A model generated the notes under the pieces. That model was given only the letters and a program-made list of their open reading frames with translations, did not search any database and was not told the DNA's origin. A stretch of DNA of 3,648 nucleotides, taken from IMG/VR virus record IMGVR_UViG_2693429524_000022. One strand, 5' to 3'. A program made the translations under genes and the position numbers. This DNA comes from a virus (taxonomy: Duplodnaviria; Heunggongvirae; Uroviricota; Caudoviricetes). Shown one piece after another: positions 1 to 3,648 of the stretch. Within the stretch, counting starts at the first letter, position 1; each line of letters starts with the position of its first letter.

Positions 1-1235
1 CTATGATAACCGCGCATTCAACATAGCTACCTGTTCGTCGTTCATGTCATCAATCCACATACCGTAAATTTCATACACCATCTGCGCAGTTTCATGCCCC
101 ATCTGGCTGGCTATAAATGCCGGGTTCGCTCCTGCCGTCAACAACCAGCAGGCAAAAGTATGCCGCGTATGGTACGGATTACGGCGGCGAATACCAGCAC
201 GTTTTACTGCTGCATTCCATCTCGCCCCCAGACTGCTTACCGAGTAATAAGGTTTCTGTTTTCCGTTACACACCCTGGGCATGAAAACAAAATGCAGTTT
301 TTGCTTTTCGGTTCTGCCGTACTCCCGATGATAAAAAGTGATTTCGCTTTTGCGATGATGCCCGGTTAGTTTGTATTGCTCCTTCAGTGCTTCAATAGCA
401 GGCCGCAGTAGTGTTACCGTCCGAATCCCCGCATTTGTTTTTGGGGGACCGAACATATCAAGTATCGTCAGGTTTCTTCTGACATTCACAATTCCCTTCT
501 CGAAATCCACATCCTCCCACGCCAGAGCAGCCAGTTCCCCGTGACGAAGCCCGGAGTAAACGGCAAATTTCCACAAGTTCTGGCTCTGTCCTTTTTCACT
601 TTCCATTAATGCATTGAATTCTGTTTTAGATAACGGATCAGGCTTTATTCTGTTTCGCTGTAATTTTTTTACTCCTTCAAATGGTTTGGTTGATATAAAT
701 CCCGACTGATACGCAAAACGTAACAACGAACAGAGCAGGGCGATATAGTTATCAACTGTGCGCACGGTTCTTCCTTTTTGTTGGATCTTGGATTATCCAG
801 GTAAAGCGTTTCTCCATGCAGCAGTTCATTCCGGTAGTTTAAGATATCGCTATAACGAATATGTGATATTGGGGTACTCTCACAAATTATTATCCTGAGT
901 GTTTTTAATTGTGATTTCGTTTTCTTCATTGTGTTTGTTGTTAACTCTGTCTCTTTAATTTTTGTCCAGATATCACAAAGCTCCCCGAACGTTTTTATGA
1001 CCCTCGTTGTCACCATTTTTGCCCCAGTGCTGGACTGGGGGAAACGTCTTAAATACTCAAATTCACCGGAATTGATTTCATGAACTATCAACGCTCTTAA
1101 ATTCCCGGCTTTTTTAATGTTACTGTTAGTAACCTCCCAGCCTTTCAATGTTTCCCGACATCGTTTTCCTCGAAACATGAACCAGATGCGAATGTATTTA
1201 CCTCGAATCTCGACACCTGTTGGTAATTTAGACAT
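1..1235 (-). pseudogene. intR: Tyrosine recombinase (phage integrase), frame-disrupted. The N-terminal segment (ATG 1233-1235, in-frame stop 669-671) and the C-terminal catalytic segment (open from 792 down to stop 1-3) are in different frames. The switch lies in 766-782, across an A5/T5 homopolymer at 775-779.
   Basis: N-terminal ORF (188 aa, MSKLPTGVEIRGKYIRIWF...) resembles an integrase arm-binding/core N-terminus. C-terminal ORF (254 aa) carries tyrosine-recombinase catalytic signatures: GLRHGELAALAWEDVD (box I Arg), NPYHTRHTFACWLLTAGANP (box II His/Arg) and a terminal Tyr region (MVYEIYGMW). 1235 nt from start to stop is one nt short of a multiple of 3. Restoring one base in the homopolymer would give a continuous ~411-aa protein, the length I recall for K-12 IntR. 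Symbol is from recollection of Rac organisation, not a search. Confidence 0.8.
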
Positions 1236-1236
1236 A

Positions 1237-1452
1237 TCATGAGTCTTTGATAAACTGATTTATCTTTGGATAGTTGTACCAGATAATCCCTCGCTTACTG
1301 TCTGGCTTCCCTAAAGGAGATACTCGTTTGAAGTGGAAGCCTTCCACCCAACAGTTCTGGCGGTATGCTTCAATTTGTCTGGCCCCCAGACCAGTGCGAA
1401 GCATCAGGCCGTATTCAACCATCCACTCTTCATTAAAGATTACTTGTGCCAT
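1237..1452 (-). CDS. xisR: Excisionase-like small DNA-binding protein (71 aa from ATG at 1450-1452). The ORF track's longer form starts at a TTG at 1474-1476.
   Basis: Small basic protein ([44 protein letters not shown]...) immediately upstream of the integrase on the same strand. Its TGA stop (1237-1239) is one nt from the integrase ATG. The ATG at 1450-1452 is preceded on the coding strand by GAGGTGA with 5-nt spacing. 71 aa matches my recollection of K-12 YdaQ/XisR. Confidence 0.7.
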
Positions 1453-1503
1453 CGCATCACCTCTGGCAGGCGCCAATGTTAGACTGAAATTGACGCCCGA
1501 TGT

Positions 1504-1519
1504 TGATTATTAATAATCA
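1504..1519. repeat. Perfect 16-bp palindrome TGATTATTAATAATCA in the ydaC-xis intergenic region; candidate operator or protein-binding site.
   Basis: Sequence 1504-1519 is its own reverse complement; flanks at 1503/1520 break the symmetry. It sits in a 99-nt AT-rich non-coding gap (1453-1551). Existence is certain; function is inferred. Confidence 0.5.
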
Positions 1520-1551
1520 GCTATGAAGTTTTAATTTGAATACAATGCAAT

Positions 1552-1740
1552 TCACGAGGACTGAAGTTGCTCGCAATTAAAATTTATCAGTTTTACTTTC
1601 TGCTCTCTGGAAACGCCTGCTTCTTTTTTACCTGAGAGCATTTTTTCGCATTCTGATTTGGTTAATTTTGTTTTTGAGTACCTTGTCCAGTTAGTAGGAG
1701 TGCCACCTTCCTTTTCAATAGTGGCGGTAATTTTATACAT
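1552..1740 (-). CDS. ydaC: YdaC-like small prophage protein of unknown function (62 aa from ATG 1738-1740; alternative upstream starts at 1750-1752 and 1810-1812).
   Basis: ORF MYKITATIEKEGGTPTNWTRYSKTKLTKSECEKMLSGKKEAGVSREQKVKLINFNCEQLQSS. The ATG at 1738-1740 has a GGAGGTG Shine-Dalgarno (1744-1750) 5 nt upstream, lying inside the last codons of the upstream gene. Position between the RalR-like gene and the excisionase matches Rac. Symbol from recollection; no recognisable catalytic motif. Confidence 0.55.
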   Translation of the reverse strand: MYKITATIEKEGGTPTNWTRYSKTKLTKSECEKMLSGKKEAGVSREQKVKLINFNCEQLQSS

Positions 1741-1927
1741 GAACACCTCCATTATTATTTCCAGTGGTTCGTTTATTCCATCGTTCGAGTGCTTCTTTTT
1801 CACTTCCACCATAGCCGGTTCGGGATTCGCATCCGTTACACTTCGCGCGGTAATATCCTGAAATGGCTTTCACCGTTACTGATGGACAACCACAAAAAGG
1901 GCATGGTTTGACTTTTTCATACCGCAT
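1733..1927 (-). CDS. ralR: Lar-family restriction-alleviation protein / RalR-like DNase toxin (64 aa from ATG 1925-1927; alternative ATG at 1940-1942 gives 69 aa).
   Basis: Translation MRYEKVKPCPFCGCPSVTVKAISGYYRAKCNGCESRTGYGGSEKEALERWNKRTTGNNNGGVHV has the paired CxxC zinc-binding motifs (CPFCGC ... CNGC) typical of Lar/RalR proteins. Its size and its position directly downstream of the annealase match Rac ralR. 64 aa is the length I recall for K-12 RalR. Confidence 0.75.
   Translation of the reverse strand: MRYEKVKPCPFCGCPSVTVKAISGYYRAKCNGCESRTGYGGSEKEALERWNKRTTGNNNGGVHV
1744..1750 (-). promoter_or_regulatory. Shine-Dalgarno GGAGGTG for ydaC, embedded in the 3' end of the ralR-like coding sequence.
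   Basis: Coding-strand sequence AAT AAT AAT GGA GGT GTT CAT GTA TAA in the ralR frame. The ydaC ATG (1738-1740) lies 5 nt after GGAGG and overlaps the last two ralR codons; ralR stop is at 1733-1735. Confidence 0.55.
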
Positions 1928-1959
1928 TGTCTTTTCTCTCATAAAATAAAATTTTGTGA

Positions 1960-1981
1960 TGGCGGTGAGGCTACACCGCCA
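1960..1981 (-). other. GC-rich stem-loop (8-bp stem TGGCGGTG / CACCGCCA, 6-nt loop) in the annealase-ralR intergenic region.
   Basis: Inverted repeat read directly: 1960-1967 tggcggtg, loop 1968-1973 aggcta, 1974-1981 caccgcca. Lies 17 nt upstream of the first possible ralR ATG on the coding strand. No adjacent U-tract, so not called a terminator. Confidence 0.4.
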
Positions 1982-1990
1982 AAGTCAATA

Positions 1991-3043
1991 TCAGGAGCCG
2001 ATATATTCTGGTTTCATATCTGTCAGTGTCGTTTTATACGCCTCATATAATTCACCCAGATGTGGCCGGGCAGCATTCAGCGTATTTTCCAGAGCAGTAA
2101 ATTTTTGTTCTGCTTCTGGATCACCTGAAGAAGGTAGGTCATTTATCATCTTCTCGATACGGGCAATAGCATTGAGACGGTGATGACGCTGAACCACTTT
2201 TCCTTTAAGTTCCGTATAGAGAGCGCCAAGTGTATTTTTATGATCTTCCACTTCCTGGCGAAGTGCTGTTGTTTCCCCGGTGCTTTGTGCCTGCTCAATA
2301 CGTTCACGGAAAGCATCGATCCAGTTTTCCCCGGCATCCTGCTCAATAATTGTTGTTTCACGTTCCGCGCGGCAAGCGGAAGTGTTTTTATGTTCCTGAA
2401 CCGGATTAATGATTTTTTCCTGTGGCTCGTCCAGTTCGTCCCTGGTGTACACTCCAAGAATCACTTCGGGGCAATAAAGGCGCGCCCAGCGTTTCAGCGC
2501 TAGATAGGCAAGCTGCTGGCGAGGATCGTCGGCCCATAGCGTTGAGTTACGTGTTCTGGCCTGCGCCAGAAGTAATTCCAGTACGCGTGGTTTACTTTCG
2601 CCGCGTAGTGTTGCCTGGACACGAACACCGATCCCGTTTTCATCGGCCAGCTTCCAGCCAGGTACACGATATTCTTTCCCTTTGTCGCTCTTCCTGATTT
2701 CAAATTTCCCGATAATTTTTTCCCACGGCCCGAACCAGTCATATTCAATACGCCCGGTTAGCGGCCCACGAGTACTGATTACGGCATTAACCAGTTGCGC
2801 TTCATATCCGAGCACACCATTCACAACGAAAGTTTTCTGAGCTACTGCGTAAGGGTTCATTTGCCACTGCATCGCCTGCATGGTGATGGCCATGCAGTCT
2901 GATGGATTTCCTCGGAGGTGTTCCGGTACAGTAGCCATGCCGGAAGCCATTACCTGGGAAAATGTCTGAATTGCAGCCATGGACTGAGGGCTGAAAACCG
3001 CAACATTAGAGTTAATATTTTCTTGTTGAGTTAATTCGTTCAT
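1991..3043 (-). CDS. RecT/Redbeta-family single-strand annealing protein (350 aa) with an extended charged C-terminal tail.
   Basis: Complete ORF ATG 3041-3043 to TGA 1991-1993. Internal segments resemble conserved Redbeta/RecT regions as I recall them: FVVNGVLGYEAQLVNAVISTRG (compare Redbeta VPVVGVDGWSRIIN, RecT IIGYRGMIDLARRSG) and TLWADDPRQQLAYLALKRWARLYCPEVILGVYTRDELDE (compare Redbeta GPWQSHPKRMLRHKAMIQCARLAFGFAGIYDKDEAE). It is not the 269-aa K-12 RecT sequence, so no symbol is given. Sits directly downstream of an exonuclease gene with a strong RBS. Confidence 0.8.
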   Translation of the reverse strand: MNELTQQENINSNVAVFSPQSMAAIQTFSQVMASGMATVPEHLRGNPSDCMAITMQAMQWQMNPYAVAQKTFVVNGVLGYEAQLVNAVISTRGPLTGRIEYDWFGPWEKIIGKFEIRKSDKGKEYRVPGWKLADENGIGVRVQATLRGESKPRVLELLLAQARTRNSTLWADDPRQQLAYLALKRWARLYCPEVILGVYTRDELDEPQEKIINPVQEHKNTSACRAERETTIIEQDAGENWIDAFRERIEQAQSTGETTALRQEVEDHKNTLGALYTELKGKVVQRHHRLNAIARIEKMINDLPSSGDPEAEQKFTALENTLNAARPHLGELYEAYKTTLTDMKPEYIGS

Positions 3044-3047
3044 TGTG

Positions 3048-3054
3048 TCCTTCC
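3048..3054 (-). promoter_or_regulatory. Shine-Dalgarno GGAAGGA for the annealase, abutting the exonuclease stop codon (translational coupling).
   Basis: Coding-strand sequence ATC TGA GGAAGGA CACA ATG: exonuclease stop at 3055-3057, SD at 3048-3054, annealase ATG at 3041-3043. Confidence 0.6.
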
Positions 3055-3648
3055 TCAGATGCTCAGTGCTTCAAGACGACGAAGATCAAAGTCGTTTAAT
3101 TCGTCGGTATAACTTTCGGTAATCGGTGCTGGCCAGTTGTTTGTCTCCAGGGCTTCGTTTATCTGGCGTAGCGTCCGGCGATATTCCTGTCGACCAAGTT
3201 CCAGGAGTTCCTGCGAGGCTTCCACGACTGCCACCCAGTGATAGCCAGCATCTTTGTTGACGAAGATCCAGAAAAATTTGTCCAGGTTTGCCACATCGCA
3301 ATACATTGCGGCGCTGAGGTGATAATCACGCTCAATAATTTCACGGTGCAGGCGATCTTTAAGTCGTTCCTGTCGCACATAACCGAGGCTGACTGACTTC
3401 ACGTCAGCGCAAATGCTTTCGTATGGCAGCCGGATTTCGATATCAGGACGGACCCTGATTTCCAGCCCGGTTTCTTCATCAAACCCGAAATAGCTGATTT
3501 CAGATTTGCGATCCGGGTGGTTGAGTTGAACCGCCCCGGGTTTCCTGGAGAGTGTTTTATCTGTGAACTCAGGCTGCCAGATCATCGTTTCCGATGGAAG
3601 CATAATAAGCTTTTTCTGCTTCTGCCGGAGGAGTATGGCCCAGCCTTC
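3055..3648 (-). CDS. PD-(D/E)xK exonuclease of the RecE / lambda-Exo type, C-terminal 197 codons only; the 5' end lies beyond the window edge.
   Basis: Frame is open from the window edge (3648) to TGA at 3055-3057. It contains RVRPDIEIRLPYESICADVKSV (PD ... DxK arrangement) followed by YHLSAAMYCDVANLDKFFWIFVNKDAGYHWVAVVEA, which parallels the lambda Exo C-terminal region as I recall it ([37 protein letters not shown]). Too little sequence lies upstream of the PD motif for a complete nuclease domain, so the ATG at 3601-3603 is probably internal. Confidence 0.7.
   Translation of the reverse strand, partial: EGWAILLRQKQKKLIMLPSETMIWQPEFTDKTLSRKPGAVQLNHPDRKSEISYFGFDEETGLEIRVRPDIEIRLPYESICADVKSVSLGYVRQERLKDRLHREIIERDYHLSAAMYCDVANLDKFFWIFVNKDAGYHWVAVVEASQELLELGRQEYRRTLRQINEALETNNWPAPITESYTDELNDFDLRRLEALSI

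What the first reader, a model, noticed from the sequence alone, without database searches (positions are those of the whole stretch)
766..795. Integrase frame broken by a single-nucleotide change at an A5/T5 homopolymer
The integrase start-to-stop span (1235..1) is 1235 nt, one short of a multiple of three. The N-terminal frame reads ...LDNPRSNKKEEPCAQ... to a stop at 669-671, and the catalytic C-terminal frame is open only from 792 downward (...SKIQQKGRTVRTVDNY...). The two frames can be joined only across coding-strand AACAAAAAGGAAGAACC (766-782). Adding one A (or G) there would give ...NKKGRTVRTVDNY... and an intact ~411-aa integrase. If real, the prophage has lost integrase function and is locked in the chromosome, while excisionase and recombination genes remain intact. 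If not, it is a homopolymer sequencing error.
Basis: seen in the sequence. Interest (0 to 1): 0.45.

Follow-up and report, generated by a model that had tools for sequence, protein, structure and literature searches.

The report
One-base deletion breaks Rac prophage integrase
The integrase gene of an E. coli Rac-type prophage lacks one A in a run of six, which cuts off its catalytic half; this is an ordinary pseudogene or a homopolymer sequencing error, and only the raw reads can tell which.

Summary
Window 1-1235 (minus strand) is intR, the integrase of an E. coli Rac-type prophage. It matches an intact 411-aa allele (WP_000040838.1) at every base except one missing A, so A6 has become A5 (plus-strand T5 at 775-779). 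The first reading frame ends after 154 native and 34 foreign residues. All six catalytic residues sit in the -1 frame.

The allele is a singleton. It was absent from 1,846 complete E. coli genomes holding this segment, five Rac-type phage records, IMG/VR, JGI metagenomes, the representative genomes of 185,579 bacterial and archaeal species, and a 5.8-billion-cluster protein collection.

Broken intR genes are common, though. At least four other indel alleles lie at or beside homopolymers, and one (A5 to A4 at gene position 240-244) is inherited by 29 complete genomes.

I favour a real, recent replication-slippage mutation (about 0.57) over a sequencing error (about 0.37). Without reads this cannot be settled.

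- recE is not intact. An IS1203 element interrupts it at 3526/3527.
- The frame needs a -1 slip to be restored, and the lesion created C_AAA_AAG, so trace amounts of wild-type integrase are possible. Nothing suggests programmed recoding.

This is ordinary and of low interest.

The parts
775..779 (-). The lesion. T5 on the plus strand, A5 on the coding strand, where every comparable intR has A6 (gene positions 457-462, codons K153-K154).
   Evidence: Alignment to intact intR. It is the only difference from the closest genome over 3526 nt. 0 of 1846 complete genomes carry A5.
669..1235 (-). intR 5' fragment. ORF of 188 aa: 154 native residues (arm-binding domain 5-69 and most of the SAM-like core-binding domain), then 34 out-of-frame residues (EEPCAQ...HLKE) and a stop at 669-671.
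   Evidence: ORF list and translation. Pfam PF12167 E=7.7e-27 and PF14659.
1..792 (-). intR 3' part in the -1 frame. It corresponds to residues 155-411 of intact IntR and includes the catalytic domain. The mechanical ORF runs from a GTG at 765 (254 aa) to a stop at 1-3.
   Evidence: Pfam PF00589 E=2.3e-23. The alignment to Tn1549 Int 6emy places R231, K266, H356, R359, H381 and Y391 here.
672..792 (-). 121-nt stretch where both frames are open. A -1 ribosomal slip anywhere here would give a full-length protein. A slip at the lesion itself (AAC AAA AAG, window 782-774) would give the exact wild-type sequence.
   Evidence: Frame arithmetic. No downstream structure, z = +0.76.
1237..1452 (-). xisR (ydaQ) excisionase, 71 aa, intact.
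   Evidence: DNA identical to L130, where it is annotated as WP_000079604.1.
1552..1740 (-). DUF1187 gene (ydaC-like), intact.
1733..1927 (-). ralR, type I toxin (endodeoxyribonuclease), intact.
1556..1734 (+). RalA antitoxin sRNA, full length.
   Evidence: Rfam RF02694, 215 bits against a gathering score of 170, E=2.4e-52.
1991..3043 (-). recT, 350 aa, intact.
   Evidence: Identical to L130, WP_001004423.1.
3055..3526 (-). recE 3' remnant, only the last ~157 codons. Homology to every recE ends at 3526.
3527..3648 (-). Right end of IS1203/IS629 (IS3 family): terminal inverted repeat TGAACCGCCCCGGG plus the OrfB C-terminus ...GNDDLAA*. It is inserted in recE in the same orientation as recE.
   Evidence: 100% identity over 122 nt to the IS1203 copy in L130. 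IS1203 annotation under the hits. The junction was not found elsewhere.

Best explanation
The window is the left arm of an E. coli Rac-type prophage: intR, xisR, a DUF1187 gene, ralR/RalA, recT and the 3' end of recE. Its integrase gene carries a strain-specific one-base deletion, most likely from replication slippage in an A6 run (A6 to A5).

Shown: translation from the intR start now leaves the native frame after Lys154 and stops 34 codons later. The product has the arm-binding domain and most of the core-binding domain, but none of the catalytic residues.

Inferred: a tyrosine recombinase needs its DNA-binding and catalytic domains in one chain, and integrase is needed for excision. XisR alone therefore cannot excise the element, and the prophage is 'grounded' apart from trace frameshift suppression. 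No second change has built up in intR, so the event is very recent. A unique IS1203 insertion in recE shows that this prophage copy is decaying.
For: - Identity and site: 99.9% identity to annotated intR/xisR next to ttcA. The single gap lies in the A6 run. It is the only difference from Z1323CEC0019 over 3526 nt, and 27 other runs of 5-7 bases are unchanged.
- Domain split: Pfam places the arm-binding and SAM-like domains in the 188-aa fragment and Phage_integrase in the downstream frame. The catalytic residues map to 231-391.
- Real homopolymer frameshifts do inactivate this gene in nature. A5 to A4 at gene 240-244 is shared by 29 complete genomes. The two draft/SRA contigs I could inspect (one NCBI, one Logan), out of 176 collection blocks that hold the 254-aa fragment, carry the same deletion. 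PGAP annotates it as 'frameshifted'.
- The same prophage copy has a second unique lesion, IS1203 in recE.
- The window ends 122 nt inside the IS. That looks like a short-read contig break, and an A6 miscall is unlikely on the commonest short-read chemistry. This last point is inference.
- Literature: Rac excision is promoted by XisR, the integrase gene intR lies next to the left attachment site in ttcA, and excision was induced by overproducing excisionase and integrase together (PMC4632033). Recombinase mutations 'ground' prophages (PMC6379469).
Against: - The allele is a singleton. It is absent from 1846 complete genomes, five phage records, IMG/VR, JGI metagenomes and species representatives. 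Neither its 188-aa product nor its out-of-frame tail is on record. No inheritance can therefore be shown.
- A one-base undercall in a homopolymer is the classic 454, Ion Torrent or Nanopore consensus error.
- The sequencing platform and reads are unknown.
- Loss of excision is inferred, not measured. The att sites and the rest of the prophage lie outside the window.
Confidence: 0.57

Rival explanations
1. Sequencing or assembly artefact. The genome really has A6 and an intact 411-aa intR, and one A was dropped when the consensus was called at the homopolymer.
For: - The allele has never been seen in any other assembly.
- It is a one-base length change in a six-base run.
- The gene is otherwise identical to an intact allele, with no secondary decay.
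- Two of 37 sampled complete genomes carry other intR indels, each seen here in a single sampled genome, at a C-run. These may also be errors.
Against: - The 27 other homopolymer runs of 5-7 bases in the same 3.5 kb, including a T7 and five 6-mers, all agree with the reference.
- The contig appears to break inside an IS. That suggests short reads, and most short-read data are Illumina, where such errors are rare (inference).
- Real inherited homopolymer frameshifts in this same gene exist.
Confidence: 0.37
2. Functional recoding. The A5 allele is expressed as full-length IntR through -1 ribosomal frameshifting at C_AAA_AAG, or through transcriptional slippage on the A-run, so that integrase is made at a reduced, tuned level.
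For: - The shift needed is -1.
- The lesion puts AAG in the A site with AAA in the -1 frame, and a slip there gives the exact wild-type sequence.
- A_AA.G is the most shift-prone tetramer in E. coli (PMC4066793).
- Non-programmed suppression of one-base deletions reached 1-10% in aggregate in two test proteins (PMC10861913).
Against: - There is no conservation: 0 of 1846 homologues use this arrangement.
- C_AAA_AAG is not a canonical X_XXZ_ZZN heptamer.
- Downstream RNA folds no better than shuffles, z = +0.76.
- Without a stimulator, tetramers sit at about background, 0.147% against 0.112% (PMC4066793).
- From my own knowledge, a five-base A-run is too short for efficient RNA polymerase slippage.
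- At most this is leakiness, not a designed mechanism.
Confidence: 0.04
3. Split integrase. The 188-aa N-terminal fragment and a 254-aa C-terminal fragment, started at the GTG at 765 behind an AGGAAG Shine-Dalgarno-like sequence, are both made and work together.
For: A GTG lies 6 nt downstream of the coding-strand sequence AAGGAAG, and the catalytic domain is complete in that ORF.
Against: - The break falls inside the core-binding domain (Pfam SAM-like match 83-187), so neither fragment has a whole one.
- The same GTG and Shine-Dalgarno-like context exist in intact alleles, so they were not selected for this purpose.
- I know of no tyrosine integrase that works split in this way.
Confidence: 0.02

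Closest known systems
IntR, integrase of the E. coli Rac prophage and Rac-like prophages at ttcA (WP_000040838.1, 411 aa; K-12 intR is about 96.6% identical in DNA)
   Same: The gene is the same. It shares 1235 of 1236 positions with the MEI003 and Z1323CEC0019 allele, has the same neighbour xisR, and has the same left-arm gene order.
   Different: One A is missing from the A6 run at gene 457-462, so the ORF is split into 188-aa and 254-aa pieces.
intR pseudogene allele A5 to A4 at gene 240-244, in strains 2013C-3277, CFSAN027350, UTME-2, 2013C_3964 and others (29 complete genomes)
   Same: It is also a one-base deletion in an A-run of the same gene in the same prophage type. PGAP annotates it as 'frameshifted'. 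It yields the same 254-aa C-terminal gene call.
   Different: It lies at a different run, 217 nt further upstream. It is inherited by a clade and was confirmed in the two independent assemblies I could inspect (one NCBI draft, one SRA/Logan assembly). The window's allele has been seen only once.
'Grounded' or cryptic prophages: loss of excision through recombinase or att-site mutation (PMC6379469)
   Same: The predicted consequence is the same. The prophage is retained because its recombinase is inactivated while cargo genes (ralR/RalA, recT) persist.
   Different: Loss of excision is only inferred here. The att sites and most of the prophage are outside the window.
Programmed -1 frameshift sites of dnaX and IS3-family transposases (A_AAA_AAG plus stimulators)
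   Same: A Lys AAG codon is preceded by A's, so the A-site tRNA-Lys can re-pair with AAA in the -1 frame. The direction of shift needed is also -1.
   Different: The first base is C rather than A. There is no pseudoknot, hairpin or upstream Shine-Dalgarno stimulator, and no conservation. It works like a weak slip site at best and is not a member of that class.

Membership tests
Tyrosine recombinase / phage integrase (Pfam PF00589 with N-terminal arm-binding and core-binding domains) | Catalytic domain recognised by the family profile | tested here: met
   PF00589 E=2.3e-23 on the 254-aa downstream ORF, and 6.7e-23 on the repaired protein.
Tyrosine recombinase / phage integrase (Pfam PF00589 with N-terminal arm-binding and core-binding domains) | Catalytic R-K-H-R-H-Y residues present | tested here: met
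   The alignment to Tn1549 Int (6emy, E=4.9e-8) places R231, K266, H356, R359, H381 and Y391. I read the residue assignment off the alignment.
Tyrosine recombinase / phage integrase (Pfam PF00589 with N-terminal arm-binding and core-binding domains) | DNA-binding and catalytic domains encoded in one uninterrupted reading frame | tested here: not met
   The frame breaks after codon 154. The arm-binding and SAM-like domains are in frame 0 and the catalytic domain is in frame -1. As written, this is a pseudogene of the family, not a functional member.
Rac prophage intR orthologue | Near-identity to annotated intR, with xisR immediately upstream | tested here: met
   99.9% identity over 1300 nt to more than 25 genomes annotated as intR | xisR. 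xisR lies at 1237-1452.
Rac prophage intR orthologue | Located next to the ttcA attachment site (attL) | not testable with these tools
   The window begins at the intR stop codon. In all relatives examined, ttcA follows 51-52 nt later, but the window's own flank is not available.
Programmed -1 ribosomal frameshift site | Canonical slippery motif (X_XXZ_ZZN heptamer or Z_ZZN tetramer) in the zero frame | tested here: inconclusive
   The zero-frame sequence is C_AAA_AAG. The A_AAG tetramer is present and the heptamer rule is not met. Tetramers alone sit at about background (PMC4066793).
Programmed -1 ribosomal frameshift site | Stimulatory downstream structure or upstream Shine-Dalgarno-like element | tested here: not met
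   The 83 nt downstream fold at -14.1 kcal/mol against a shuffle mean of -16.3, z = +0.76. The only Shine-Dalgarno-like sequence lies downstream of the site.
Programmed -1 ribosomal frameshift site | The two-frame arrangement is conserved among homologues | tested here: not met
   0 of 1846 complete genomes, 0 of 5 phage records and 0 in IMG/VR carry it. 113 of 114 IMG/VR copies have a single ORF.
Phase-variable (contingency) homopolymer switch | Both run lengths recur across strains, usually in a long tract | tested here: not met
   Only A6 is seen in every other assembly, and the tract is just 5-6 bases long.

The most novel reading that the evidence does not exclude
The A5 allele is real and is not a dead gene. 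It would be a leaky one, in which -1 slippage of tRNA-Lys at the newly created C_AAA_AAG rebuilds exact wild-type IntR in a small fraction of translations. That would turn Rac excision down rather than off, a one-step evolutionary route to a 'dimmed' integrase.
Probability: 0.04. Interest if true: 0.3.

Novelty: already known. Interest (0 to 1): 0.07.

Why it matters
If the deletion is real, this strain's Rac-type prophage has probably lost the ability to excise. The ralR/RalA toxin-antitoxin pair and recT would then stay fixed at the ttcA locus. That is one more example of the well-described decay ('grounding') of cryptic prophages through homopolymer slippage.

If it is an error, the only consequence is a false pseudogene call. 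Neither outcome changes current understanding.

The practical lesson is that intR in E. coli assemblies is repeatedly hit by indels at or beside homopolymer runs. Some are demonstrably inherited and some may be artefacts, so single-assembly frameshifts here should be checked against reads before they are interpreted.

Tried and rejected
- **Looking for a second copy of the A5 allele.** All of these were negative:
  - a 34-mer in IMG/VR, GTDB species representatives and JGI metagenomes
  - a 20-mer in IMG/VR
  - a 20-mer in the GTDB representatives, which gave five hits in archaeal and Bacteroidota MAGs that are unrelated chance matches
  - 101-nt and 61-nt megablast against 5,426 complete E. 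coli genomes and against phage records
  - an exact look-up of the 188-aa product
  - a search for the out-of-frame tail in 5.8 billion protein clusters, whose only hit, P0001, covers just the native half

  The positive control with A6 found at least 120 IMG/VR contigs.
- **Using the recE-IS1203 junction as a lineage marker** to find close kin. There were no matches.
- **Looking up the 254-aa C-terminal product.** It is on record in many assemblies, but the two I could inspect carry the other frameshift, A4 at 240-244, not this one.
- **Programmed frameshift.** Rejected because there is no conservation and no stimulatory structure.
I assumed the same at first. Frame arithmetic shows the shift is -1.
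- **Coverage gap.** Shigella genomes are not covered separately by the genome collections I could search. A Shigella source is not excluded, although the best matches are E. coli.

Full report
**What is in the window**

The window is the left arm of an E. coli Rac-type prophage, with all genes on the minus strand:

| Feature | Coordinates |
|---|---|
| intR | 1-1235 |
| xisR | 1237-1452 |
| DUF1187 gene | 1552-1740 |
| ralR | 1733-1927 |
| recT | 1991-3043 |
| 3' end of recE | from 3055 |

The first 1300 nt match more than 25 complete E. coli chromosomes at 99.8-99.9%, and those chromosomes annotate the region as intR and xisR. In the relatives examined, ttcA follows intR by 51-52 nt, which is the known Rac attachment locus (PMC4632033). 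Rfam also finds the full-length RalA antitoxin sRNA at 1556-1734 on the plus strand.

**Checking the observation**

- The start-to-stop span is 1235 nt.
- Frame 0 runs from the ATG at 1235 to a stop at 669-671 and reads ...LDNPRSNKKEEPCAQ....
- The catalytic part is in frame 2 (that is, -1). It is open from 792 down to the stop at 1-3.

Aligned with the intact 1236-nt intR of strain MEI003 (411 aa, WP_000040838.1), the window's gene differs at one position only. One A is missing from the A6 run at gene positions 457-462, which leaves plus-strand T5 at 775-779. The alternative repair, adding a G, is not what relatives show.

Over window 1-3526 this is the only difference from the closest complete genome, Z1323CEC0019. 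The 27 other homopolymer runs of 5-7 bases in that stretch are unchanged.

**What the break does to the protein**

Pfam places the domains of the repaired protein as follows:

| Domain | Residues |
|---|---|
| Arm-DNA-bind_2 | 5-69 |
| SAM-like core-binding | about 82-187 |
| Phage_integrase catalytic | 205-391 |

The alignment to the Tn1549 integrase structure 6emy places the catalytic residues at R231, K266, H356, R359, H381 and Y391.

The frame is lost after K154. The primary product is therefore 154 native residues plus 34 foreign ones, with no catalytic residue.

Integrase is required for excision together with the excisionase. XisR has been shown to be the Rac excisionase, and excision was induced by overproducing excisionase and integrase together (PMC4632033). 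The predicted consequence is a prophage that cannot excise, a 'grounded' prophage in the sense of PMC6379469. This step is inferred: the att sites and most of the prophage are outside the window.

**How common is this allele, and how common are broken intR genes?**

The A5 allele was not found anywhere else.

| Search | Result |
|---|---|
| 61-nt query against complete E. coli genomes | 1,846 genomes matched, all at 98.4% (one gap), none identical |
| Phage records, including Rac-SA53 | all five have A6 |
| Exact 34-mer in IMG/VR | none |
| Exact 20-mer in IMG/VR | none |
| Exact 34-mer in JGI metagenomes | none |
| Exact 34-mer in GTDB species representatives | none |
| Exact 20-mer in GTDB species representatives | only chance hits in unrelated MAGs |
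| Exact 188-aa product | not on record |
| Out-of-frame tail in the 5.8-billion-cluster protein collection | no match |
| Control: A6 pattern in IMG/VR | at least 120 contigs |

Of the IMG/VR contigs found by the control, 113 of 114 full-length intR copies are intact.

Broken intR genes are nevertheless not rare. In an evenly spaced sample of hits, 3 of 37 full-length copies in complete genomes have a length other than 1236 nt, and PGAP annotates all three as 'frameshifted'. Every indel allele I located lies at or beside a homopolymer:

| Allele | Where found |
|---|---|
| A5 to A4 at gene 240-244 | 29 complete genomes |
| +1 at the C-run 195-199 | L131 |
| -1 at the C-run 195-199 | L132 |
| 2-nt deletion beside the A7 at 567-573 | L086 |

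The A4 allele is certainly real. It is shared by 29 complete genomes. It is also the deletion in the two draft/SRA contigs I could inspect (one NCBI, one Logan), out of 176 collection blocks that hold the resulting 254-aa C-terminal product.

Inactivation of this very gene by homopolymer slippage is therefore an established natural event. It is also exactly what sequencing errors look like.

**Real mutation or artefact?**

The data here cannot decide this.

For an artefact:
- The allele is a singleton.
- It is a one-base undercall in a 6-mer.
- The gene shows no secondary decay.

For a real mutation:
- All 27 other runs in 3.5 kb are correct.
- The same prophage copy has another unique lesion, an IS insertion.
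- The window stops 122 nt into a 1.3-kb IS. That is typical of a short-read contig break, and homopolymer miscalls of this length are unusual on the most common short-read platform. This point is inference.

I put a real, recent slippage mutation at about 0.57 and an artefact at about 0.37.

**A correction on recoding**

A one-base deletion is compensated by a -1 shift, not a +1 shift, because the frame goes from 0 to 2.

The deletion produced the zero-frame codons AAC AAA AAG. If tRNA-Lys slips from AAG back onto AAA, the next codons are GGA AGA ACC GTG, which is the exact wild-type protein. More generally, a -1 slip anywhere in the 121-nt two-frame overlap (672-792) would give a full-length protein.

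A_AA.G is the most shift-prone tetramer in E. coli. Without a stimulator, however, tetramers average 0.147% against a background of 0.112%, and A_AA.G reaches 5.6% only with the IS3 pseudoknot (PMC4066793). Here the downstream RNA folds no better than shuffled sequence (z = +0.76), and no homologue shares the arrangement.

Non-programmed suppression of single-base deletions can total 1-10% in some genes (PMC10861913), so some leak is plausible. Programmed recoding is not supported.

A split two-piece integrase is also unlikely. The break lies inside the core-binding domain, and the GTG/AGGAAG context is equally present in intact alleles.

**Other lesion in the window**

All matches to recE stop at 3526. 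Positions 3527-3648 are 100% identical to the right end of IS1203/IS629, comprising the terminal repeat TGAACCGCCCCGGG and the OrfB C-terminus. The element has the same orientation as recE, and only the last ~157 codons of recE remain next to recT.

This junction is absent from all complete genomes, IMG/VR and JGI metagenomes. The closest genome has its own IS1203 in recE about 520 nt further in.

**Verdict**

This is an ordinary, already well-known kind of event, either a prophage integrase pseudogene or a homopolymer miscall. Interest is low.

Noticed in passing
window 3527-3648 (junction at 3526/3527): The right end of an IS1203/IS629 element interrupts recE and leaves only its last ~157 codons. 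The junction is absent from 5,426 complete E. coli genomes, IMG/VR and JGI metagenomes, so it is a second strain-specific lesion in this prophage.
   Followed up: yes
window 3055-3648, minus strand: One reading frame stays open from the window's end, through the IS1203 terminal repeat, into the recE remnant (EGWAILLRQKQKKLIMLPSETMIWQPEFTDKTLSRKPGAVQLNHPD...). It is not the OrfB frame, which stops at ...GNDDLAA*. Read-through transcription from the IS into the recE remnant and recT is conceivable but untested.
   Followed up: partly
L002-L004, L133, L134, L135 (intR gene positions 240-244): A different intR frameshift (A5 to A4) is inherited by a clade. It is in 29 complete genomes, many from human and bovine sources, and in the two draft/SRA contigs inspected out of 176 collection blocks that hold the resulting 254-aa product. 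This is a genuine, fixed integrase pseudogene of the same prophage type.
   Followed up: partly
L131 and L132 (intR gene positions 195-199); L086 (gene 565-567): There are further intR indel alleles: +1 and -1 at a C-run in two complete genomes, and a 2-nt deletion beside an A7 run in an IMG/VR contig. All indels seen in this gene sit at or next to homopolymers. Whether each is real or an assembly error is unknown.
   Followed up: partly
L130 7056-9309 (strain Z1323CEC0019), and O145 strains: The closest complete genome has its own IS1203 in recE at a different position. Several O145 genomes annotate only a partial 'PD-(D/E)XK nuclease-like' recE remnant. recE of this prophage lineage seems to be lost repeatedly.
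   Followed up: partly
window 1556-1734 (+): There is a full-length RalA antitoxin sRNA (Rfam RF02694, 215 bits) antisense to the DUF1187 gene and reaching the 3' end of ralR (overlap 1733-1734). The RalR/RalA type I toxin-antitoxin pair appears intact.
   Followed up: partly
window position 1; IMG/VR loci: Many IMG/VR provirus contigs hold the A6 pattern at 758-792, which means they begin at exactly the intR stop codon, as this window does. The window's left edge therefore looks like a provirus-caller boundary set at a gene end, not a biological boundary, and attL is just outside it.
   Followed up: no
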